From a virus (taxonomy: Duplodnaviria > Heunggongvirae > Uroviricota > Caudoviricetes): a DNA stretch of 64,000 nucleotides. Below are positions 10,312-23,314 of this stretch, in pieces. The number at the start of each line of letters is the position of its first letter. Position 1 is the stretch's first letter. Below the pieces are notes generated by a model that did no database searches, was not told the DNA's origin, and saw nothing but the letters and a program-made list of their open reading frames with translations. The stretch lies in the IMG/VR virus record IMGVR_UViG_2693429668_000006; one strand, 5' to 3'. The translations under genes were made by a program, and so were the position numbers.

Positions 10312-10866
10312 TTATTTTATTTTATCTTCTTCTAAACGAGAAAATTTAAATTGTTTATCGGTGATGGTGAGTAGTGTTACACCTTCCTTTTCGTGTAAAA
10401 GACCGGCACCGTTTGACACCATAATCAATCTATCCTTCCCTCGAAAGATTTCATAATATTTACCAGCTCCACAAGTTTTAGTTTCAATACAGTCCATGCC
10501 AGATACTGCTTCTCTGTTAAAAACACGATCTTTTGTAGCAACGGGTTTTCCGTACTCCTTTGTCAGCATTTCACTTATCTGGATGAATGTATACTTACCA
10601 ACATTACTGGTTAATGACATTTCGACTTTTCCGTCGATCAGGTTGCCATTCGTATGCGGTTCTTTTTCAGTCGGACTATTTTTATCTTGAAGAATAAACA
10701 CTTCAACATTTTGTGTTAGCTTCTTGAATTGGGCTTTATAATTTTGTTCAAGTTCACTTTTATCTTTGCCTATTAACGTTAATTCATCTATTTCAGATTC
10801 GTTACACCCTGTTAGTGTTAACGCAATTATTAGAGATGCGAAAATATTGAGATGGCACTTCTTCAT
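10312..10866 (-). CDS. lipoprotein (signal peptide with lipobox LTGC)
   Basis: 184 aa; MKKCHLNIFASLIIALTLTGC N-terminus; AT-rich like the neighbouring membrane protein. Confidence 0.6.
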   Translation of the reverse strand: MKKCHLNIFASLIIALTLTGCNESEIDELTLIGKDKSELEQNYKAQFKKLTQNVEVFILQDKNSPTEKEPHTNGNLIDGKVEMSLTSNVGKYTFIQISEMLTKEYGKPVATKDRVFNREAVSGMDCIETKTCGAGKYYEIFRGKDRLIMVSNGAGLLHEKEGVTLLTITDKQFKFSRLEEDKIK

Positions 10867-10985
10867 TAATTTGTCTCCATGTTTAACTGCTGCGATCTAA
10901 TCAGGAACATGAAGGCAGTCTAACGCTGCCTCGGATCAAAGCGATAAAACGATACGTGAATATAACTAAGTGTCAACAAATCAAA

Positions 10986-11006
10986 AAAGGGGCCGAAGCC
11001 CCTTTG
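10986..11006 (-). terminator. rho-independent terminator downstream of the tRNA cluster
   Basis: Stem AAAGGGGC-CGAA-GCCCCTTT; on the minus strand the stem is followed by a run of 6-7 T. Confidence 0.6.
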
Positions 11007-11159
11007 AATTTTGCGCTGAAAAAAGTGTTGCTAGGATGTTAGCAAGCTATGGTTAAGAACGTCTGCCGTAATTGTCTATCACAGCGTTGAGCGGTCTGGT
11101 TTATGTTAGCGGAGTCTTAATCTGGTTGATTAAAAGGCCAAACCGCTCAACGCTGTGTC

Positions 11160-11246
11160 TGGCGGAGAGTAATGGAATCGAACCATCATCGTTTGCACAA
11201 TGGGACGGTTTTCAAGACCGCTTGAGCACCATGCTCCCTACTCTCC
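11160..11246 (-). tRNA. tRNA-Ser (anticodon UGA), class II with long variable arm
   Basis: Minus-strand 87 nt: perfect 7-bp acceptor stem GGAGAGT/ACTCTCC, anticodon loop CTTGAAA, T-arm GGTTCGATTCC, encoded CCA; D-arm atypically short. Confidence 0.6.
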
Positions 11247-11540
11247 AATTGTGTTGTGTGCTCCGTTTCGTGGAGCTAACGGCGGGTGATCAGACCGCAC
11301 CAGGTTGGACGTATTTCAGCGTTATGCTGTTGCAAGAGAGCCAAATTGTGATGGCCGGTGCTGATCTCCGGCATTGCCTACGTTAGCGGCCTTCAGGCAG
11401 TTCATCCGCTTGCTTCTACGTCGCACATCAGCCTGTGCATTCACCACAATGTTGAGAACACTGGTTGTCACGCTGCAACGCAACATTATATTCATAAATT
11501 GGGATATGAACCCGTTACGCCAATGTTCTCAATATTATGT

Positions 11541-11616
11541 TGGTGCCGGTTAACGGACTTGAACCGCTGGCCATTTGCTTACAAAGCGACTGCTCTACCA
11601 ACTGAGCTAAACCGGC
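11541..11616 (-). tRNA. tRNA-Thr-like (anticodon UGU), possibly pseudo-tRNA
   Basis: 76 nt; acceptor GCCGGTT/AACCGGC, D-arm GCTCAGTTGGTAGAGC, T-arm GGTTCAAGTCC, CCA; anticodon loop TTTGTAA, but anticodon stem GTCGC/GCAAA has two mismatches. Confidence 0.5.
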
Positions 11617-11620
11617 AATT

Positions 11621-11707
11621 TGGTGGGGAGTGATGGAGTCGAACCACCCGAGTCGCAATGACAGTAGATTTACAGTCTACACCGCTACCTCTACGGACTA
11701 ACTCCCC
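11621..11707 (-). tRNA. tRNA-Tyr (anticodon GUA)
   Basis: 87 nt; acceptor GGGGAGT/ACTCCCC, anticodon stem-loop GTAGA-CTGTAAA-TCTAC, long variable arm, T-loop TTCGACT, encoded CCA. Confidence 0.8.
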
Positions 11708-11712
11708 TAAAT

Positions 11713-11787
11713 TGGCGATGGTGGGTGGATTCGAACCACCGATCAGTTGGTTAACAGCCAACTGCTCTACCGCTGAGCTACACCATC
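11713..11787 (-). tRNA. tRNA-Asn (anticodon GUU)
   Basis: 75 nt canonical cloverleaf: GATGGTG-TA-GCTC-AGCGGTA-GAGC-A-GTTGG-CTGTTAA-CCAAC-TGATC-GGTGG-TTCGAAT-CCACC-CACCATC-G-CCA. Confidence 0.85.
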
Positions 11788-12576
11788 AATTCAGCACTGC
11801 CAGTATTTATTACTCAGCAGTGCCAATCGCGGCGGTGTTAGTTTTTGCCAATAAACGCACCGCTACTTGCACTTTTCGTTAGTGCCAGACGTTTTCGACT
11901 TCGCTCAATAGAAGGCAAAATCTTTAAGTAGATGATGTTTCTGAGGACAGCACCTACTTTGTAATTTACATAATGCGGTGTATGGAATCATTTGTTGTGA
12001 AAACAGGCACCAATGGCAACAGTGGTTAAACCTACACAACAATCCTGTCTTCACAACGTTGAGGCCACTACCCCGATTGAATGTTTGCCCAACATGTTAC
12101 ATATCAACGTTCGCCAGTATCTCTGTGAATAGAACCTTAGAATTGATAAAAATGTAATGGCCTCAACGTTGTGTGCTGGCTAACCATACCAGCCGGGCTA
12201 CGTCGCCGCTTTTTAACCCAGTATAAACGACATAATTGAACAAAATGACGTAACAGGATGGGCGGTCAGTGGCTAAGAATCCGGGAGTGATATGGAGTTG
12301 GAAATATACCGACCGCCCATTCTGTTACTTCATCGGAGAGGGCATGGGTGGTGCCGTATCATGCCCTCTCCTGCGTTCTGCAATCACACTCGCTCAGTGT
12401 GTCCCATTTCGGTAACGAGGCTGGAAACTGACCTCGCTGGTGTTTGGCTTATTAGGCTACTGCCAGATAGACTTCTTCGTTTGCACTTGTATTTAAGTTC
12501 AAACAGTCGCGTCTCAACGAAAACAAAGCCATCTTATACATAAAAGATAAGTAAGTAAATACTTATCGTGATGTTT

Positions 12577-12867
12577 TTATTCGGTTGTGACTTTTTTGAT
12601 CATGGCCACTCTACGATCAGGTGTTCTTGTGATGGTTGCAGTGAATCGTTTCGCTTGGATAGTAATGGTTTCGTTCTCCTTAAGTTGCCCGTAGCGAGTT
12701 TCCACCAGGGTGCCAAGACGCCACAGGCAATCATCGATACGTTTATGACTGGCAAATTTAATCAGCAGCAGTTTTACGACTAACTGACCTACGTAAAAGG
12801 CGAATCCGACTCCAGTCGCGATGAAATAGTGTACCAACCACCAGTCCCAAGAAGTTAAATTGCTCAT
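12577..12867 (-). CDS. small membrane protein (96 aa)
   Basis: ORF track; TM segment WWLVHYFIATGVGFAFYVGQLVV; start overlaps stop of an upstream small ORF (ATGA). Confidence 0.45.
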   Translation of the reverse strand: MSNLTSWDWWLVHYFIATGVGFAFYVGQLVVKLLLIKFASHKRIDDCLWRLGTLVETRYGQLKENETITIQAKRFTATITRTPDRRVAMIKKVTTE

Positions 12868-13016
12868 TTTCTCACCTTTGTTTCATGAATTACCCGATAC
12901 ACACGCTTTCCGATGCACAGTGTTTTGGTTTTAAGTTCCTGCTTAATTAAGTCACGACAGATGCCGAAGCCGATAAGGAAACCAGCCATAAAAGCTAATG
13001 AGATGTATGGAATCAT
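12864..13016 (-). CDS. small membrane protein (50 aa, below ORF-track cutoff)
   Basis: Hand-translated: MIPYISLAFMAGFLIGFGICRDLIKQELKTKTL...; ATGA-coupled to both neighbours. Confidence 0.35.
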   Translation of the reverse strand: MIPYISLAFMAGFLIGFGICRDLIKQELKTKTLCIGKRVYRVIHETKVRK

Positions 13017-16793: not shown

Positions 16794-18047
16794 ATGAAAC
16801 TCATAAAACCTTCATCGTTGCTGGCATTAGCTTTGCTTTTCGGCCCTGGATACGTTAACGCAGATAATAAACAAACGCTGATCGACGCCGCCACCGCAGG
16901 AGATACCACAGCACAAAGTGCGTTAGGGACAAATTATTTGGATGGGGCTAATGGCTTTGATGAGGATTTAGTAGAGGCCAAGAAGTGGATCGATCTCGCC
17001 GCAGAAAAGGGAGATAAAGTAGCATATTATGCGCTTGGGGTTATGTACACAATTGGGAAGGGAGTAGATAAAGATCTAAATAAGGCCGTTGAGTACTACA
17101 AACTAGCAGGAAATGCTCGCAACGGCAGTGCTTACCATAATCTTGCCGTTATATACGAACGAGGTTGGACTGGAAAGGAGGACCCAGAAGCTGCTTTAAA
17201 ATATCACAAACTAGCAGTAGAAGCTGGTGATATACCTTCGCTTGCCTATATGGGATATTTATATCAATACGGTAAGGGAGTTCCGAAAGATTACAAGAAA
17301 GCATTTAAATCTTATAAAAAGGCTGCGGATAGTGGAAATGCCGCAGGAATGTATGGGCTAGGCTCTATGTACGACGATGGTGTTGCTGTTAAGCGCAACA
17401 ATAAAGAGGCAATTAAGTGGTACTTGAAAGCAGCTGAATTAGGAAATAATAACGCCATGAGCGCGCTTGGATACAAGTTGATGCATGGAGAAGGTATAAA
17501 AAAAGACTATTCGAAGGCCAGAAGTCTTTTAGAACAAGCAATCAGCTTAGGAAATGATTATGCCATGAACCACCTTGGTTACATGTATCTTAAGGGATTG
17601 GGCGTCAAACAGGATTATCGGAAAGCATCAGAGCTTTACCAAGCTGCTTGCGATAAAGATGACGAAACGGGCTGCGAAAACGTTGCTGCAATGAAAGCAA
17701 AAGGTACGTTCCGTTCGCCTTCAAAACAGCAAAATGCCAAATCTGACACTCAGCGACTTATTGCTAAATCCATTGATAAAGGCGTTAACGCAACATTTAC
17801 CTGGCAGGGTGATGATGCCGTCTTCACCGCTAATGATGGCAAAGTTGACTGCACCTTCTTGAAGGATTTTTCAGAGAAAGGAGGCAATCTGGCTACCTCG
17901 TTTGTTTGCACCGATAACGTTCAAATCATCCTGAAGCAATTCAGAGATACCAAGAATGCCTACCTCGCGGTAATGACTGACAACTTCAACACAGAAGTTA
18001 AATCATTTTCGGTCAATGTTTACGTGACTAATACTGGTTCAAACTAA
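16794..18047 (+). CDS. secreted Sel1-repeat (SLR/TPR-like) protein
   Basis: 417 aa; signal peptide MKLIKPSSLLALALLFGPGYVNA; at least 7 tandem ~36-aa Sel1 repeats (A..YxLGxMYxxGxGVxxDxxxAxxWYxKAA pattern). Confidence 0.8.
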   Translation: MKLIKPSSLLALALLFGPGYVNADNKQTLIDAATAGDTTAQSALGTNYLDGANGFDEDLVEAKKWIDLAAEKGDKVAYYALGVMYTIGKGVDKDLNKAVEYYKLAGNARNGSAYHNLAVIYERGWTGKEDPEAALKYHKLAVEAGDIPSLAYMGYLYQYGKGVPKDYKKAFKSYKKAADSGNAAGMYGLGSMYDDGVAVKRNNKEAIKWYLKAAELGNNNAMSALGYKLMHGEGIKKDYSKARSLLEQAISLGNDYAMNHLGYMYLKGLGVKQDYRKASELYQAACDKDDETGCENVAAMKAKGTFRSPSKQQNAKSDTQRLIAKSIDKGVNATFTWQGDDAVFTANDGKVDCTFLKDFSEKGGNLATSFVCTDNVQIILKQFRDTKNAYLAVMTDNFNTEVKSFSVNVYVTNTGSN

Positions 18048-21607: not shown

Positions 21608-23314
21608 TTAATGATTGAGTATTTTATTAACACGCAGCTTATTAAGTGTTGATTTTGAAGCAACTTCCTCCAAAGCTTCTATTGCTTTATCAGTGATGCT
21701 CTTCTGTTCGTCTGTCGGGTGTTGCATACCCTTGAACTTGAGCATAGTCTCTTCTACTAAATTCAAAGCATCCTGATCACAGGATAATATCCAGTTTACG
21801 TAATCATCTTTAGAAAAACTGTTAAGAATATTCACATCACTATGGTTAAATCTTCCACCAGCTATTTTTTTTATAATTTTATCTAAGTTATAGTCATCTG
21901 GATTTCTATCTTTCAATTTTTTTTCAATTCTGAAACCTAATTCTTCATTTCCGAAGATCTCTACTCGCAAAGAATTAAATGTAGCATACGCATTGTCTTT
22001 ATTAACAAAAGCATCTGCATATGCCTCTATAATATTATTACAATCTCTATCCAATTTGATTAGGACATTTATTAAACCTACGAACTGTCCAATTGGTATA
22101 CGCAACAGACTATCGTTAATTACGCGCTCAATTTGAAAAATAAACTCTGATTCATTATCTTTAAAAGAGTTTCTAAAAACATCCCAAATTTTATAAACCT
22201 CACATAAAACCCTATTATCTCTATATTGTTCATTTTTTTCTTTTATTATATTTAGAATATTGCTTTCAGAAGACACATAACCGTTCTTAAGGTAAAAATC
22301 TATATCATCATCGAAAGCACTTTCTGCTCGTTCATAAATAATATCAAGGCTATTAACAAATGAATATACAGAGTTAACTTCTTCCTTTTCATCTTTATCA
22401 TCTAACATATAGTCGAATGCATGTATATTTTTGATTGACTCCTTAAATGAAGCATAATCAACGCTAGGAACACCAAAATAGTAAACCACTGAAAATAAGA
22501 CCAATCTATTAATAAAACTTTCTCTAACCTTATCCTCTGCTAACTTTAGCACATCTCTAAATATAACTAGAGATGATTTTATTTTATTTAATATTCTAAT
22601 GTTTTTGATGTTTAAATCATTTGCTAGGTTTTTTAACAAAAGAAAATCAGGGTCAGTCTCATAAAAAACTTTTCTTAAGTTTTTCTCAGGCGTGGGATCG
22701 TATTTTATTTCCACATCAATTATTTTTTCTCTATACTCTAAAAACTGTTGTTGTGCAGTTTCTTCATGTAAGTTATCTTCATTTAATATTAGAACAACCT
22801 TGCAATTTTTTCTTCTTGCCAACTCATCAATTACCCCCATAATCTCTTTAATTTCTAGCGCACTACCTTTTCGTTCAATATCATCAATGCAAACCAAATA
22901 ATTATTAACAAATTTATACTCAAGAGATGACAGCAGATTATCAGTTTTGAACCCAAAAAAATCGTTCTTTCCAAAATGTATTAAAAATTTTGACAAGGAG
23001 TTGTATTTCAACCATCCCCAAAACCCATTTCTATAACGAATCATAGTTCGATCCGTTTCAGATAAAATCAGTTCTTTATATTTCTTTTCATTAATTGGTG
23101 TGGCACAATGATAAAGAGCTTTTTTAATGTCTCCAATAGAATTTATTCCAAACAAAGAAACATATGAATATGCATTAAAATCTAATTTTTTAGAATGTTT
23201 AGTATAAAAGCTATTCCAATAATGCGTTTTACCTACTCCCCAATTTCCTTTTATGACAGCAACCCGATGATCTGAGTCCAAAAAATTTTTTAAAAATACT
23301 TCTATCGATTCCAT
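21608..23314 (-). CDS. KAP-family P-loop NTPase
   Basis: 568 aa; KAP-type Walker A VIKGNWGVGKTHYW and Walker B-like LVCIDDIERKG (compare GxWGxGKS and IDDLDR of KAP NTPases); gene body strongly AT-rich. Confidence 0.7.
   Translation of the reverse strand: MESIEVFLKNFLDSDHRVAVIKGNWGVGKTHYWNSFYTKHSKKLDFNAYSYVSLFGINSIGDIKKALYHCATPINEKKYKELILSETDRTMIRYRNGFWGWLKYNSLSKFLIHFGKNDFFGFKTDNLLSSLEYKFVNNYLVCIDDIERKGSALEIKEIMGVIDELARRKNCKVVLILNEDNLHEETAQQQFLEYREKIIDVEIKYDPTPEKNLRKVFYETDPDFLLLKNLANDLNIKNIRILNKIKSSLVIFRDVLKLAEDKVRESFINRLVLFSVVYYFGVPSVDYASFKESIKNIHAFDYMLDDKDEKEEVNSVYSFVNSLDIIYERAESAFDDDIDFYLKNGYVSSESNILNIIKEKNEQYRDNRVLCEVYKIWDVFRNSFKDNESEFIFQIERVINDSLLRIPIGQFVGLINVLIKLDRDCNNIIEAYADAFVNKDNAYATFNSLRVEIFGNEELGFRIEKKLKDRNPDDYNLDKIIKKIAGGRFNHSDVNILNSFSKDDYVNWILSCDQDALNLVEETMLKFKGMQHPTDEQKSITDKAIEALEEVASKSTLNKLRVNKILNH

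What the first reader, a model, noticed from the sequence alone, without database searches (positions are those of the whole stretch)
10986..12566. tRNA cluster (Ser, Thr-like, Tyr, Asn) followed by ~750 bp of hairpin-rich non-coding sequence
Four minus-strand tRNAs lie at 11160-11787, with a ~290-bp gap between tRNA-Ser and the Thr-like gene that may hold degenerate tRNA remnants. Upstream, 11790-12540 has no credible ORF but several long perfect inverted repeats: CAACGTTGAGGCC (12054-12066) with GGCCTCAACGTTG (12160-12172); ATGGGCGGTC/GACCGCCCAT (12258-12322); GAGAGGGCATG/CATGCCCTCTC (12335-12370). A 16-bp inverted repeat also flanks tRNA-Ser (11080-11095 with 11141-11156). This could encode structured ncRNA, decayed tRNA genes, or a recombination/attachment region.
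Basis: seen in the sequence. Interest (0 to 1): 0.5.

Follow-up and report, generated by a model that had tools for sequence, protein, structure and literature searches.

The report
Phage tmRNA-like RNA beside tRNAs
The "non-coding" stretch upstream of this phage-plasmid's tRNA genes encodes a structured RNA that copies the message-carrying half of the bacterial ribosome-rescue RNA (tmRNA) but lacks its tRNA-like half. The same unannotated element occurs in phage P1, lambda-like prophages, Felix O1-like phages and the plague and typhoid plasmids pMT1 and pHCM2.

Summary
There are four minus-strand tRNAs (Asn, Tyr, Thr, Ser), every listed inverted repeat is present, and the RNA folds far better than shuffles (z = -9.5). 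The region is one untranslated RNA operon on the minus strand of an SSU5-like phage-plasmid, running from a promoter near 12559-12531 to a terminator at 11005-10986.

Its first 152 nt (12524-12373) resemble the coding half of tmRNA. They hold a GCA resume codon with the critical A at -4, and a 10-codon SsrA-like tag, ANEEVYLAVA, with two stop codons. A helix-5-like hairpin and two pseudoknots follow; across 55 distinct copies 93% of cells pair, against 49% or less when partners are slid.

No tRNA-like domain, SmpB gene or canonical tmRNA was found in the window.

Downstream lie long-stem hairpin cassettes and an STnc100-like unit, interleaved with the tRNAs.

The core recurs in P1, HK620-type prophages, Felix O1-like phages, Klebsiella siphophages, pMT1 and pHCM2. 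It reaches no Rfam threshold and is not annotated in the records inspected.

Function is inferred, not shown. My preferred reading is a mimic that engages the host trans-translation machinery. The main rival is that it is the coding piece of a split tmRNA.

The parts
12531..12559 (-). Putative sigma-70 promoter: -35 TTTACT (12559-12554), 17-nt spacer, -10 TAAGAT (12536-12531). The inferred transcription start is at about 12525, just before GUUUUCG.
   Evidence: Read directly from the sequence. It matches only 8 of 12 consensus positions, so the scan did not list it. Better promoters sit at the same position in three other lineages: TTGACA-17-TAGATT in Klebsiella siphophages, TTGACA-17-TATAGT in EC6, and TTTACC-17-TATAGT in Klebsiella SSU5-type plasmids.
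12373..12524 (-). tmRNA-like core. It resembles the 5' region of tmRNA and holds the resume codon, tag reading frame, helix-5-like hairpin and two pseudoknots. It has no tRNA-like domain.
   Evidence: The core is identical in Cyrano. 55-63 distinct copies were aligned (A3, A4). Rfam gives a sub-threshold hit to beta_tmRNA at 12401-12503 (E = 0.009). Homologous cores hit tmRNA-clan models. MAFFT aligns it with E. coli ssrA.
12449..12484 (-). Tag reading frame: GCA AAC GAA GAA GTC TAT CTG GCA GTA GCC TAA TAA, encoding ANEEVYLAVA followed by two stops. The base at -4 (12488) is A and the base at -5 is C.
   Evidence: One search found 14 tag peptides, all of 10 codons plus a stop. One search found 21 nucleotide alleles. 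(PMC2481249) shows that A86 is essential and that U85C is tolerated. At a relaxed threshold ARAGORN reports this same tag.
12445..12465 (-). Helix-5-like hairpin spanning the end of the tag frame, with the stop codons in or next to the loop (UGGC/GCCA in the window).
   Evidence: Helix 1 is 99% paired. The changes seen are G.U to G-C on one side only.
12402..12437 (-). Pseudoknot 1. Hairpin A pairs GCGAGG (12437-12432) with CCUCGU (12420-12415). Its loop UUCCA (12426-12422) pairs with UGGGA (12406-12402).
   Evidence: The stem shows compensatory variants: UGAGG/CCUCA, CAAGG/CCUUG, CAGGG/CCCUG, CGAGG/CCUCG, and CGGGG/CCCCG in P1. So does the loop-to-downstream helix: CCGA/UCGG, CCAG/CUGG, CCAA/UUGG, CUCCA/UGGAG, and GUCG/CGAC in P1.
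12385..12401 (-). Hairpin B: CACACU (12401-12396) pairs with AGUGUG (12390-12385). In other lineages its loop forms a second pseudoknot with a downstream GGGC.
   Evidence: Helix 4 is 100% paired and two of its pairs change on both sides. The second pseudoknot is supported by co-expansions GCCC/GGGC, GCCCUGA/UCAGGGC, GCCCAC/GUGGGC (EC6) and UCCCCG/CGGGGA (P1). It is weak or unclear in the window's own SSU5-type lineage.
12335..12371 (-). Hairpin GGAGAGGGCAUG-loop-CAUGCCCUCUCC. This is the short form of the cassette stem GGUAAGAGCA/UGCUCUUUCC seen in other phages.
   Evidence: repeat I8. One search shows it is fully compensated in Cyrano and CMS-2020a (GGAGGGAACA/UGUUCCCUCC) and in SSU5 (GGAUAGGGCAUG/CAUGCCCUAUUC).
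12245..12333 (-). Long hairpin with 26-nt arms.
   Evidence: repeat I1. One search shows compensation: CAGAAUGGG/CCCAUCCUG against CGAGAUGGG/CCCAUCUCG in the Klebsiella type, and GGGUGG/CCGCCC against GGGUAG/CUACCC.
12175..12194 (-). Small hairpin GCUGG-loop-CCAGC. It marks the end of the unit that is conserved across all SSU5-like plasmids.
   Evidence: locus L077 has the two strands swapped (GCCAGC...GCUGGC).
11994..12173 (-). Two further hairpins: 12173-12052 (CACAACGUUGAGGCC...GGCCUCAACGUUGUG) and 12057-11994. They are present in the E. coli, Salmonella, Yersinia, Kluyvera and Buttiauxella type only.
11541..11787 (-). tRNA-Asn(GUU) 11713-11787, tRNA-Tyr(GUA) 11621-11707 and tRNA-Thr(UGU) 11541-11616.
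   Evidence: The same module sits in the P1, P7, D6 and Ro157c2 ban operon.
11247..11540 (-). Thr-Ser spacer. It contains a hairpin cassette (11542-11442) with a T-arm-like GGGUUCAUAUCCC inside. An STnc100-like cloverleaf unit follows (11450-11345): AUUGUGGUG-AAU-[GCACA GGCUGA UGUGC]...[GCCGG AGAUCAGCA CCGGC]-CAUCACAAU.
   Evidence: It is 82% identical to P1 69716-70005; see also alignment A1 and the motif search. STnc100 hits below threshold on the equivalent units in P1 (33.4 bits) and L013. The P1 ORFs upl and plp on the opposite strand are not conserved.
11160..11246 (-). tRNA-Ser(UGA), atypical.
   Evidence: Called by ARAGORN. Its best Rfam fit is tRNA-Sec at 44.8 bits, below the cut-off of 47. 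It is also present in Cyrano, CMS-2020a, P7 and D6.
11080..11157 (-). Hairpin CACAGCGUUGAGCGG...CCGCUCAACGCUGUG, starting 2 nt after the CCA of tRNA-Ser.
   Evidence: repeat I2. It belongs to the same stem family as 12052-12173 and 11442-11542.
10986..11005 (-). Intrinsic terminator (AAAGGGGCUUCGGCCCCUUU followed by a U run), the likely 3' end of the operon.

Best explanation
Region 10986-12559 is one untranslated, promoter-driven RNA operon on the minus strand of an SSU5-like phage-plasmid.

Its 5' module (12524-12373) appears to derive from tmRNA. It keeps a 5' stretch resembling the D-loop/P2 region of tmRNA. It also keeps the A-rich upstream sequence with the critical A at -4, a GCA resume codon and a 10-codon SsrA-like tag (ANEEVYLAVA, two stops). 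A helix-5-like hairpin and two small pseudoknots follow. It lacks the tRNA-like domain: there is no acceptor stem with G3.U70, no adjacent T arm and no CCA end.

The rest of the operon is a chain of long-stem hairpin cassettes and one STnc100-like unit. These bracket four tRNAs, and the operon ends at an intrinsic terminator.

Shown here: the anatomy, the covariation, the resemblance to the tmRNA coding region, and the wide spread among enterobacterial phages.

Inferred: the RNA is made whenever the operon is on. That would be plasmid carriage or lytic growth here, the C1-controlled ban operon in P1, and the Q-dependent late transcript in lambdoid prophages. It cannot be charged with alanine. 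I therefore think it most likely acts as a mimic of the mRNA-like half of tmRNA. In that role it would engage host trans-translation components, meaning the ligand that reads the sequence upstream of the resume codon (SmpB or S1) or the ribosome itself. The effect would be to modulate ribosome rescue while the phage tRNAs sustain translation.
For: Anatomy:
- tRNAs, repeats, terminator and strongly non-random folding.

Resemblance to tmRNA:
- The best non-tRNA Rfam hits on four versions of the core are all tmRNA-clan models. These are the window (beta_tmRNA, E 0.009) and P1 (tmRNA_permuted, E 0.017). The others are L010 (tmRNA model positions 83-140, E 0.022) and L013 (E 0.013 and 0.042).
- In the L013 alignment AUAAAUGCAAACGAU and GCCUAA match the model's tag region at top posterior probability.
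- At a relaxed threshold ARAGORN reports a 'resume consensus' and the tag.
- MAFFT against E. coli ssrA aligns GGAUUCGACGGGAUUUGCG with GUUUUCGU..GCGACUUUGCGG, and aligns the two tag frames.

Tag frame:
- 21 nucleotide alleles encode 14 peptides, all of 10 codons plus a stop. All three stop codons are used.
- Several allele pairs differ only synonymously: ACG/ACA, GAG/GAA, GTC/GTG, TTC/TTT, GCC/GCT.
- Position 6 is aromatic (Y or F) in all non-P1 types; P1 and P7 have M there.
- Most types have no in-frame start codon upstream.
- A at -4 is kept throughout the aligned copies. This corresponds to E. coli A86, which is essential.

Structure:
- 26 pairs, including both pseudoknots, are 93.4% paired. 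With partners slid the figure is 49% or less.
- 78 cells change on both sides, against 18.6 +/- 3.2 in shuffles (0 of 500 reach the observed value).
- P1 keeps the topology with different sequence.
- Many conserved G.U pairs fit only the tRNA-sense strand.

Missing tRNA-like domain:
- ARAGORN at default settings finds none in the window, although it finds E. coli ssrA.
- A motif scan of all 64 kb finds only the four tRNAs.
- tblastn finds no SmpB in the window.

Spread:
- 317 phage records and 773 plasmid records match.
- 79 IMG/VR loci match the pattern.
- 157 of 5,426 complete E. coli genomes carry the HK620 type.
- P1, pMT1 and pHCM2 also carry it.
Against: - No expression data were available. 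The window's promoter matches only 8 of 12 consensus positions.
- nhmmer with E. coli ssrA finds no hit, and no tmRNA model reaches gathering score. The homology therefore rests on motifs, architecture and sub-threshold hits on sequences that are related to one another.
- The IMG/VR copies were retrieved with a pattern that fixes TGCAAACGA, CTGGCNGTAG and AAACACCAG. Invariance of those motifs, and of codons 1-2 and 7-9, is therefore partly by construction in that set.
- A mimic or decoy does not obviously need a conserved frame length and stop codon. That argues for actual decoding, which is the rival reading.
- The core always sits at the 5' end of a transcript and is followed by varied cargo: tRNAs, lysis genes or small ORFs. 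That would also fit a purely cis-acting leader.
- The control shuffles are not probabilities for related sequences.
Confidence: 0.45

Rival explanations
1. It is the coding piece of a working split tmRNA. The tag is really decoded, so stalled ribosomes append a phage-specified ...YLAVA (or, in P1, ...MMVAA) tail. The tRNA-like, alanine-accepting part is supplied separately, by a phage-encoded mini tRNA-like domain as in Felix O1-like phages, by a processed cassette, or by the host.
For: - The frame is always 10 codons plus a stop. TAA, TAG and TGA all occur, and the window and EC6 have double stops.
- Synonymous-only allele pairs exist. Replacements are conservative (D/E, Y/F, A/V), and A is kept at -4.
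- EC6 carries a closed tRNA-like domain about 130 nt after the stop. Its acceptor CGGGGCG/CGCCUCG has G3.U70, followed by A73 and CCA. It has no D stem. Its T arm, GCGGGUUCGAGUCCUGC, is close to that of E. coli tmRNA (GCGGGUUCAACUCCCGC).
- Two-piece tmRNAs exist in nature (established knowledge).
Against: - No tRNA-like domain with G3.U70 and CCA is present in the window, and none was found downstream of any other core type.
- In EC6 the gene order (coding part first, then a complete closed tRNA-like domain) differs from known permuted genes. No helix joining the two pieces was identified.
- The cloverleaf unit in HK620 ends in GCCA, but its acceptor has U3-A70 rather than G3.U70.
- Part of the codon conservation is imposed by the search pattern.
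Confidence: 0.25
2. It is a cis-acting 5' leader. The pseudoknotted core and hairpin chain would stabilise the transcript, resist Rho, act as an antiterminator (as put or EAR do), or scaffold RNase III/P/E processing. On this reading the resemblance to tmRNA reflects ancestry only.
For: - The core is always promoter-proximal or sits right after the late terminator. There is one core per array, and varied cargo follows in the same orientation.
- That cargo is tRNAs (window, P1, EC6, Carvaje), lysis genes (HK620, L013), small ORFs (L010), or an ORF in Klebsiella SSU5-type plasmids.
- Hairpins abut the tRNA 3' ends.
Against: - It does not explain the conserved frame, the stop codon or the A at -4.
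- In P1 and in lambdoid prophages a strong terminator lies immediately upstream of the core, so the core cannot help RNA polymerase past it.
- HK620 has an annotated terminator downstream of the core that still functions as annotated.
Confidence: 0.15
3. It is non-functional debris: decayed tRNA and ssrA fragments plus recombination scars, carried along with the tRNA genes.
For: - T-arm-like remnants sit inside the cassettes. Cassette content is mosaic and differs even between close relatives.
- The tRNA content varies: Cyrano lacks Tyr and the spacer, SSU5 keeps only Asn, and pMT1 has none.
Against: - Compensatory changes occur in every helix tested, including both pseudoknots.
- The element is kept across unrelated phage families, each with its own promoter.
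- It is not a recent copy of host ssrA, since nhmmer finds no hit.
Confidence: 0.08
4. It works at the DNA level, as an attachment, origin or packaging site, or it encodes small proteins such as P1 Upl and Plp.
For: Inverted repeats can be protein-binding sites. P1 annotates upl and plp across the homologous spacer.
Against: - Conserved G.U pairs become C.A mismatches on the other strand.
- Stem sequences differ between copies while pairing is kept.
- Plp and Upl are broken by frameshifts or stops in the window, P7, Ro157c2 and CMS-2020a.
- A 13-nt indel falls inside the 83-aa plus-strand ORF.
Confidence: 0.04

Closest known systems
tmRNA (SsrA), one-piece and two-piece (permuted) forms
   Same: It has a GCA resume codon preceded by an A-rich stretch with A at -4. 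The 10-codon tag begins AND/ANE and ends in small hydrophobic residues, and the stop codon lies in or beside a hairpin. Pseudoknots follow the frame. The 5' stretch resembles the D-loop/P2 region.
   Different: No acceptor stem, T arm or CCA end is attached, so it cannot be alanylated. Only two small pseudoknots follow the frame. It does not reach any Rfam tmRNA threshold or the ARAGORN default. The tag ends in LAVA rather than LAA.
Phage-encoded tmRNAs: the mycobacteriophage Bxz1 group, Bacillus phage G, and the DS6A form that has only the tRNA-like domain
   Same: These are tmRNA-related genes carried by phages. DS6A shows that a phage can carry just half of a tmRNA, and it has been proposed to inhibit tmRNA by titrating SmpB (PMC4131195).
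   Different: This element is the complementary half: the coding part plus pseudoknots, without the tRNA-like domain. It occurs in enterobacterial phages, where that survey found no ssrA. Only ARAGORN calls in the Felix O1-like phage Moogle have been reported. In EC6 the equivalent call pairs the tag with halves of neighbouring tRNAs, which is an artefact.
STnc100 / PasD family of prophage sRNAs (Rfam RF02076)
   Same: The unit GUGGUGAAU-hairpin-...-CACCAC that follows the cassettes aligns to STnc100 in P1 (33.4 bits) and in L013. These sRNAs are described as prophage-borne, with differing seed regions, and as associated with tRNA-like hits (10.64898/2026.05.13.724894).
   Different: All the hits are below the gathering score of 47. 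The window's own unit (11450-11345) gives no STnc100 hit at E up to 10. It also has no terminator of its own.
The tRNA region of the P1 ban operon (dicF-like region, tRNA-Asn, tRNA-Thr, upl/plp, tciABC, tRNA-Ile, ban)
   Same: The Asn-(Tyr)-Thr module and the spacer are homologous at 82-89% identity. P1 also carries a diverged core upstream of tRNA-Asn.
   Different: In P1 the element lies behind the C1-controlled Pban promoter and the dicF-like terminator. In the window it has its own promoter and sits in an SSU5-type backbone.
GOLLD and ROOL, large ornate phage RNAs found next to tRNA genes
   Same: The context is similar: a large, highly structured, unexplained RNA next to tRNA genes in phages (own knowledge).
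   Different: No Rfam match was found, the hosts are different (Enterobacteriaceae), and this element is modular rather than a single ornate fold.

Membership tests
tmRNA (SsrA) | A tag reading frame that starts at a resume codon without a start codon and is preceded by the conserved upstream A (E. coli A86). | tested here: met
   GCA lies at 12484-12482 with A at -4. Most types have no in-frame ATG, GTG or TTG after the preceding stop. All copies have 10 codons plus a stop.
tmRNA (SsrA) | A tag peptide resembling SsrA degrons: AND... at the N-terminus and a small hydrophobic C-terminus. | tested here: met
   ANEEVYLAVA in the window against ANDENYALAA in E. coli (ARAGORN on L096). Fourteen variants were found. 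Whether LAVA acts as a degron was not tested.
tmRNA (SsrA) | A tRNA-like domain: acceptor stem with G3.U70, T arm and 3' CCA. | tested here: not met
   ARAGORN at default settings finds no tmRNA in the window, nor in the P1, HK620, L010, EC6 or L013 loci. A scan of the whole window finds only the four tRNAs. A scan downstream of every core finds such a domain only in EC6 (L012 4508-4589).
tmRNA (SsrA) | Pseudoknots flanking the reading frame. | tested here: inconclusive
   Two pseudoknots after the frame are supported by covariation. A PK1 equivalent before the frame could not be established, and canonical tmRNA has four pseudoknots.
tmRNA (SsrA) | A match to curated covariance models at gathering score. 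| tested here: not met
   The best hit in the window is 17.3 bits against a cut-off of 84 (beta_tmRNA). Related cores score 24.1 and 21.1 bits against 47 (tmRNA_permuted).
tmRNA (SsrA) | SmpB as an obligate partner. | tested here: not met
   tblastn with E. coli SmpB gives no hit in the window below E = 7.7. The host SmpB would have to serve, and binding cannot be tested with these tools.
STnc100 (RF02076) | A match to the Rfam model, with the GGUGAAU...CACCA closing helix and a terminator. | tested here: not met
   No hit at E up to 10 in window 10800-13000. The motif architecture is present at 11450-11345. P1 and L013 give sub-threshold hits.
tRNA | A cloverleaf with an anticodon, scored by ARAGORN and Rfam. 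| tested here: met
   Asn, Tyr and Thr pass both tools. Ser passes ARAGORN only.
Bacterial Y RNA (YrlA) | A GNCGAAN0-1G motif near the 5' end, T- and D-arm mimics, and a neighbouring Ro60 gene. | tested here: not met
   No YrlA hit in the window. The motif is absent, and no TROVE protein occurs among the neighbours. The only YrlA hit in P1 overlaps real tRNAs.
GOLLD / ROOL | A match to the Rfam models. | tested here: not met
   No hit at gathering score or at E up to 10.

The most novel reading that the evidence does not exclude
Enterobacterial phages and phage-plasmids share a mobile 'half tmRNA'. The carriers include P1, P7, HK620-type lambdoid prophages, Felix O1-like phages, Klebsiella siphophages and SSU5-like plasmids, among them Y. 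pestis pMT1 and S. Typhi pHCM2. On this reading its tag frame is truly decoded, so the phage hijacks host ribosome rescue to append its own ...LAVA tail, or otherwise reprograms trans-translation. It would do so through a split architecture or a mechanism not seen in any known tmRNA.
Probability: 0.25. Interest if true: 0.9.

Novelty: new variant of a known kind. Interest (0 to 1): 0.75.

Why it matters
tmRNA is regarded as a universal bacterial ribosome-rescue RNA. The tmRNA Website survey found phage copies only in a few mycobacteriophages and Bacillus phage G, plus one phage with the tRNA-like half alone.

Here the complementary half turns up, conserved and structurally compensated, in some of the best-studied enterobacterial phages and in plasmids of major pathogens. 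It reaches no Rfam threshold and is unannotated in the records inspected. In P1 the homologous tRNA spacer is annotated as two doubtful proteins.

If it acts on trans-translation, it would be a new way for phages to control host translation quality control. It is also directly testable in P1 or HK620 with standard genetics.

Even if it is only a leader, three results stand. The window's spacers are reassigned from 'junk' to a defined RNA family. They are linked to the STnc100/PasD prophage sRNAs. The P1 genes upl and plp are flagged as probably spurious.

Tried and rejected
- **Y-RNA/Ro idea.** A long stem plus a T arm suggested YrlA. Rfam gave no hit, the GNCGAA motif is absent, and no TROVE gene lies in the window. 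The EC6 neighbour gp023 (DUF2828 + DUF7788) matched no sequence of a solved structure.
- **boxA/Nus idea.** The common cassette strand UGCUCUUUCC resembles rrn boxA. Other cassettes change this sequence while keeping the pairing (GGUAAGGGUA/UACCCUUACC, GCAGCUUUCC and others). The helix is what is selected, not the boxA sequence.
- **Leader peptide in the ATG-CAA-ACG frame (MQT...WQ*).** Rejected because the start codon is GTG in the window and CTG in SSU5, no Shine-Dalgarno sequence is present, and a stop lies directly upstream.
- **Integron attC-like or MITE reading of the CACAAC...GUUGUG ends.** The core-site consensus is not met, and the arms differ between copies while pairing is kept.
- **Published transcriptomes.** The two pMT1 sRNAs from Y. 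pestis RNA-seq (sR082, sR083) map elsewhere on the plasmid.
- **Literature searches.** Searches for sequence strings and for tag peptides found nothing relevant.
- **nhmmer with E. coli ssrA.** No hit.
- **Search for a tRNA-like domain.** Strict motif scans downstream of all cores and across the whole window found only true tRNAs and the EC6 element. Relaxed ARAGORN (-ps75 and -ps60) recovers the tags, but among many false calls.
- **First model of the hairpin over the stop codon (CUGG/CCAG plus AGCC/GGCU).** It fits the variation less well than UGGC/GYYA plus GU/AC.
- **Covariance model.** I did not build one; the pattern and BLAST sets sufficed.


Full report
**1. Checking the observation**

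ARAGORN finds four minus-strand tRNAs and nothing else in the 64-kb window:
- Ser(tga) 11160-11246
- Thr(tgt) 11541-11616
- Tyr(gta) 11621-11707
- Asn(gtt) 11713-11787

Rfam passes Asn, Thr and Tyr at gathering score. tRNA-Ser fits the tRNA-Sec model best, at 44.8 bits against a cut-off of 47.

The repeat at 11080/11141 does not flank tRNA-Ser. It forms a hairpin just 3' of it. An intrinsic terminator on the minus strand lies at 11005-10986.

As minus-strand RNA, 11790-12570 folds at -270 kcal/mol against -210 +/- 6 for shuffles (z = -9.5). The stretch 11006-11545 gives z = -5.4.

**2. Where the window comes from, and who shares the region**

The window is an SSU5-like phage-plasmid. Its closest relatives are Escherichia phages CMS-2020a and Cyrano. 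The neighbouring genes encode an integrase, a CobT/CobS-like pair, a ligase, a primase and a DnaB-like helicase.

The tRNA module is mosaic. Cyrano has Asn-Thr-Ser with no spacer, SSU5 has only Asn, and CMS-2020a matches the window.

The same Asn-(Tyr)-Thr-spacer-(Ser) block occurs in P1, P7, D6 and Ro157c2. There it lies in the C1-controlled ban operon.

The 294-bp Thr-Ser gap is 82% identical to the P1 interval annotated as upl and plp on the opposite strand. Those ORFs are interrupted by frameshifts or stops in the window, P7, Ro157c2 and CMS-2020a. They are therefore probably not genes.

**3. A widely shared core**

A sensitive BLAST of 11788-12576 hit 317 phage and 773 plasmid records. 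Most phage hits cover only a stretch of about 100 nt (window about 12430-12528). They come from very different phages:
- Felix O1-like phages, where the element lies inside the tRNA cluster.
- HK620, between pR' and the lysis genes.
- Klebsiella siphophages of about 47 kb.
- Carvaje, upstream of a tRNA-Ser.

A pattern scan of IMG/VR returned 79 loci. Of 5,426 complete E. coli genomes, 157 carry the HK620 type, with nothing annotated there. P1 has a diverged copy upstream of its tRNA-Asn, directly after the terminator of its 'dicF-like' region. A scan of one genome per species found only Buttiauxella, Kluyvera and Pseudocitrobacter, so the element appears confined to Enterobacteriaceae and their phages.

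In lambdoid prophages the element sits between the Q-like gene and the holin. In three lineages a sigma-70-type promoter ends 7-10 nt before the conserved GUUUUCG. The window has TTTACT-17-TAAGAT at 12559-12531, which is a weaker match to consensus.

**4. Structure of the core**

RNAalifold on 63 distinct copies predicts three hairpins. Inspection adds two pseudoknots. In the first, the loop of hairpin A pairs with a downstream segment. The variants seen are CCGA/UCGG, CCAG/CUGG, CCAA/UUGG, CUCCA/UGGAG, UUCCA/UGGGA in the window, and GUCG/CGAC in P1.

In the second, the loop of hairpin B pairs after GAUUAAUAA. The variants are GCCC/GGGC, with co-expansions GCCCUGA/UCAGGGC, GCCCAC/GUGGGC in EC6, and UCCCCG/CGGGGA in P1.

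Counted over 26 pairs on 55 distinct sequences:
- 93.4% of cells pair, against 35-49% when partners are slid.
- 78 cells change on both sides, against 18.6 +/- 3.2 in shuffles (0 of 500 reach the observed value).
- The covariation score is 0.230 against 0.129.

Two caveats apply. The sequences are related to one another, so the shuffles are not probabilities. The IMG/VR set was also gathered with a pattern that fixes TGCAAACGA, CTGGCNGTAG and AAACACCAG. The helices that covary lie outside those fixed motifs.

Several conserved G.U pairs would be C.A mismatches on the other strand. This points to RNA of the tRNA-sense strand.

**5. What the core is**

Rfam searches at permissive thresholds kept returning tmRNA-clan models on this element:

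| Sequence | Model | E-value |
|---|---|---|
| window 12401-12503 | beta_tmRNA | 0.009 |
| P1 | tmRNA_permuted | 0.017 |
| L010 | tmRNA, model positions 83-140 | 0.022 |
| L013 | beta_tmRNA / tmRNA_permuted | 0.013 / 0.042 |

In the L013 alignment the model's tag region (..AUAAAUGCAAACGAU.. and ..GCCUAA) matches at top posterior probability.

Read from GCA, every copy encodes a 10-residue SsrA-like peptide followed by a stop:
- ANEEVYLAVA: window, Cyrano, CMS-2020a
- ANEEMYLAVA: HK620, Klebsiella siphophages
- ANDEQFLAVA and ANDDQFLAVA: lambdoid prophages
- ANEDTYLAVA: SSU5, pMT1, pHCM2
- ANDTQYLAVA: Klebsiella SSU5-type plasmids
- ANDNVFLAVA: EC6
- ANDDLMMVAA: P1
- ANDDLMMAAA: P7

The E. coli tag is ANDENYALAA.

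There are 21 nucleotide alleles for 14 peptides, and several pairs differ only synonymously. All three stop codons occur, and the window and EC6 have double stops. In most types no start codon lies in frame upstream.

The base four positions before GCA is always A. This matches E. coli A86, whose mutation abolishes tmRNA activity. The -5 base is U, or C in the window, and U85C is tolerated in E. coli (PMC2481249).

MAFFT aligns the E. coli ssrA 5' region GGAUUCGACGGGAUUUGCG with GUUUUCGU..GCGACUUUGCGG, and aligns the two tag frames. At a relaxed threshold ARAGORN reports a 'resume consensus' and the same tags.

**6. What is missing**

Canonical tmRNA needs a tRNA-like domain charged with alanine. 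ARAGORN at default settings finds none in the window, P1, HK620, L010, EC6 or L013, although it finds E. coli ssrA. A motif scan of the whole window for a T arm followed by a 7-nt acceptor strand and NCCA returns only the four tRNAs. tblastn finds no SmpB in the window, and nhmmer with E. coli ssrA finds no overall sequence similarity.

Only EC6 has a closed tRNA-like domain (L012 4508-4589), about 130 nt after the stop. Its features are:
- an acceptor CGGGGCG/CGCCUCG with G3.U70, followed by A73 and CCA;
- no D stem;
- a T arm nearly identical to that of E. coli tmRNA.

The published ARAGORN 'ssrA' call in the Felix O1-like phage Moogle (PMC4319497) probably reflects the same tag. In EC6 the permuted call pairs the tag with halves of neighbouring tRNAs, which is an artefact.

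The tmRNA Website survey found phage ssrA only in mycobacteriophages and Bacillus phage G. It also found DS6A, which has the tRNA-like domain only, and suggested that DS6A inhibits tmRNA by titrating SmpB (PMC4131195).

**7. The rest of the operon**

After the core come long hairpins whose stems are conserved or compensated while their interiors vary.

In SSU5-type plasmids the hairpins at 12371-12335 and 12333-12245 and the small hairpin at 12194-12175 all show compensatory changes. One case is a complete strand swap.

In other phages the common cassette has this form:
- a closing stem CACAAC-AGGUAAGAGCAUU ... AGUGCUCUUUCC-GUUGUG,
- around a variable interior of 33-80 nt,
- followed by GUGAAU-[GCGCA GGCUGA UGCGC]-...-[GCCGG AGAUCAGCR CCGGC]-CACCACAAC.

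The same interiors recur in unrelated phages, and some contain tRNA T arms.

The unit that follows each cassette is what Rfam calls STnc100, with sub-threshold hits in P1 and L013. A 2026 preprint relates STnc100 to the PasD prophage sRNAs and notes tRNA-like hits nearby. The window's Thr-Ser gap contains one such cassette (11542-11442) and one such unit (11450-11345). A third hairpin of the CACARCGUUGAG type follows tRNA-Ser (11157-11080).

Klebsiella SSU5-type plasmids keep the core and two hairpins but have an ORF in place of the tRNAs. pMT1 is truncated after the 12173-12052 equivalent, next to caf1R.

**8. How it most likely works**

Shown: the anatomy, the covariation, the tmRNA-like coding region, the absence of a tRNA-like domain, and the distribution.

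Inferred: the RNA is expressed with the tRNAs and, because it cannot be charged, acts as a mimic of the coding half of tmRNA. The upstream sequence and pseudoknots 2 and 3 are the parts of tmRNA that crosslink to S1, and U85 is the base that SmpB protects from chemical modification (PMC2481249). I give this reading about 0.45.

Against it, the conserved frame length and stop codon fit real decoding better. That is the split-tmRNA rival, at about 0.25.

The constant 5' position ahead of varied cargo fits a cis-acting leader, at about 0.15.

Debris (0.08) and DNA-level or protein-coding readings (0.04) fit the covariation poorly.

**9. Novelty and verdict**

I could not find the element described. 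It reaches no Rfam threshold and is unannotated in the E. coli RefSeq hits and the phage records inspected. Its sequences and tag peptides appear in no searchable paper. Only bare ARAGORN 'ssrA' mentions in Felix O1-like genome announcements come near it.

It is best classed as a new variant of a known kind: a tmRNA-derived RNA without the tRNA-like domain, linked to STnc100-like sRNAs and phage tRNAs.

It is of high interest because it occurs in classical model phages and in pathogen plasmids, and because it makes phage interference with ribosome rescue directly testable.

Noticed in passing
window 11160-11246 (-): tRNA-Ser(UGA) is atypical. It misses the Rfam tRNA cut-off and scores best on the tRNA-Sec model (44.8 bits against 47). 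An 8-bp acceptor stem (GGAGAGUA/UACUCUCC) is possible, and the D arm is short. The D6 annotators made a similar remark. Its variable arm carries UGCAAACGAUGA, the same 12-mer as the resume region of the prophage-type core.
   Followed up: partly
L002 (P1) 2465-3034 (+), homologous to window 11258-11556: The P1 genes upl and plp ('putative lipoprotein') overlap the hairpin and STnc100-like RNA on the other strand. They are broken by frameshifts or stops in related phages. The C-terminus of Plp is antisense to tRNA-Thr. Both are probably misannotations.
   Followed up: yes
L012 (Escherichia phage EC6) 4508-4589 and 1355-2770: A Felix O1-like phage has a mini-RNA resembling the tmRNA tRNA-like domain, with G3.U70, A73, CCA and no D stem. 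It lies downstream of the tmRNA-like core. A DUF2828 + DUF7788 'RNA-binding protein' (gp023) is encoded right next to the 20-tRNA cluster. I recall DUF2828 being related to Ro/TROVE proteins, but I could not test that.
   Followed up: partly
L098 (Y. pestis KIM10+ pMT1) 1544-2007; L099 (S. Typhi pHCM2) 1544-2328: Both pathogen plasmids carry the core with the tag ANEDTYLAVA, differing only by a synonymous ACG/ACA change. In pMT1 the element is cut off after the fourth hairpin, 12 bp from caf1R of the F1 capsule locus, and no tRNA follows. The two pMT1 sRNAs from published RNA-seq map elsewhere.
   Followed up: partly
L017, L036, L052, L077, L082, L091 (Klebsiella-type SSU5-like contigs): These contigs have the core plus two hairpins but no tRNAs. 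About 370 nt after the inferred transcription start an ORF begins (MQDVDELKRAAATLFVKAIQQNRGDYGS...), so here the RNA is a long 5' leader of a protein-coding gene.
   Followed up: no
L008 (HK620) about 1750-1785: The feature annotated as 'qut' overlaps a strong terminator-like hairpin (AAAGCCCUGAGUUAAUAGCUCGGGGCUUUUU). This looks like tR'. In prophage-type loci the tmRNA-like element follows just such a terminator.
   Followed up: no
window 8732-10060 (+) and 10312-10866 (-): Two ORFs of unknown function (phrog_18168 and phrog_15156, no Pfam match) lie just downstream of the RNA operon. Cyrano has a glutaredoxin and other small genes in this region instead, so this is a variable cargo site.
   Followed up: no
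window 21608-23314 (-) and 16794-18047 (+): A protein with KAP-family P-loop and nSTAND3-like NTPase matches, and a protein with seven Sel1 repeats. Both are possible defence or counter-defence cargo of the phage-plasmid.
   Followed up: no
L010, L016, L020, L032, L058, L066 (Klebsiella siphophage contigs): A tRNA-Arg(UCU)-like sequence lies about 350-780 nt downstream of the core in several of these phages, although ARAGORN called none in L010. The EC6 tRNA-like element also has a CUUCUAA loop, so it may descend from the same tRNA.
   Followed up: no
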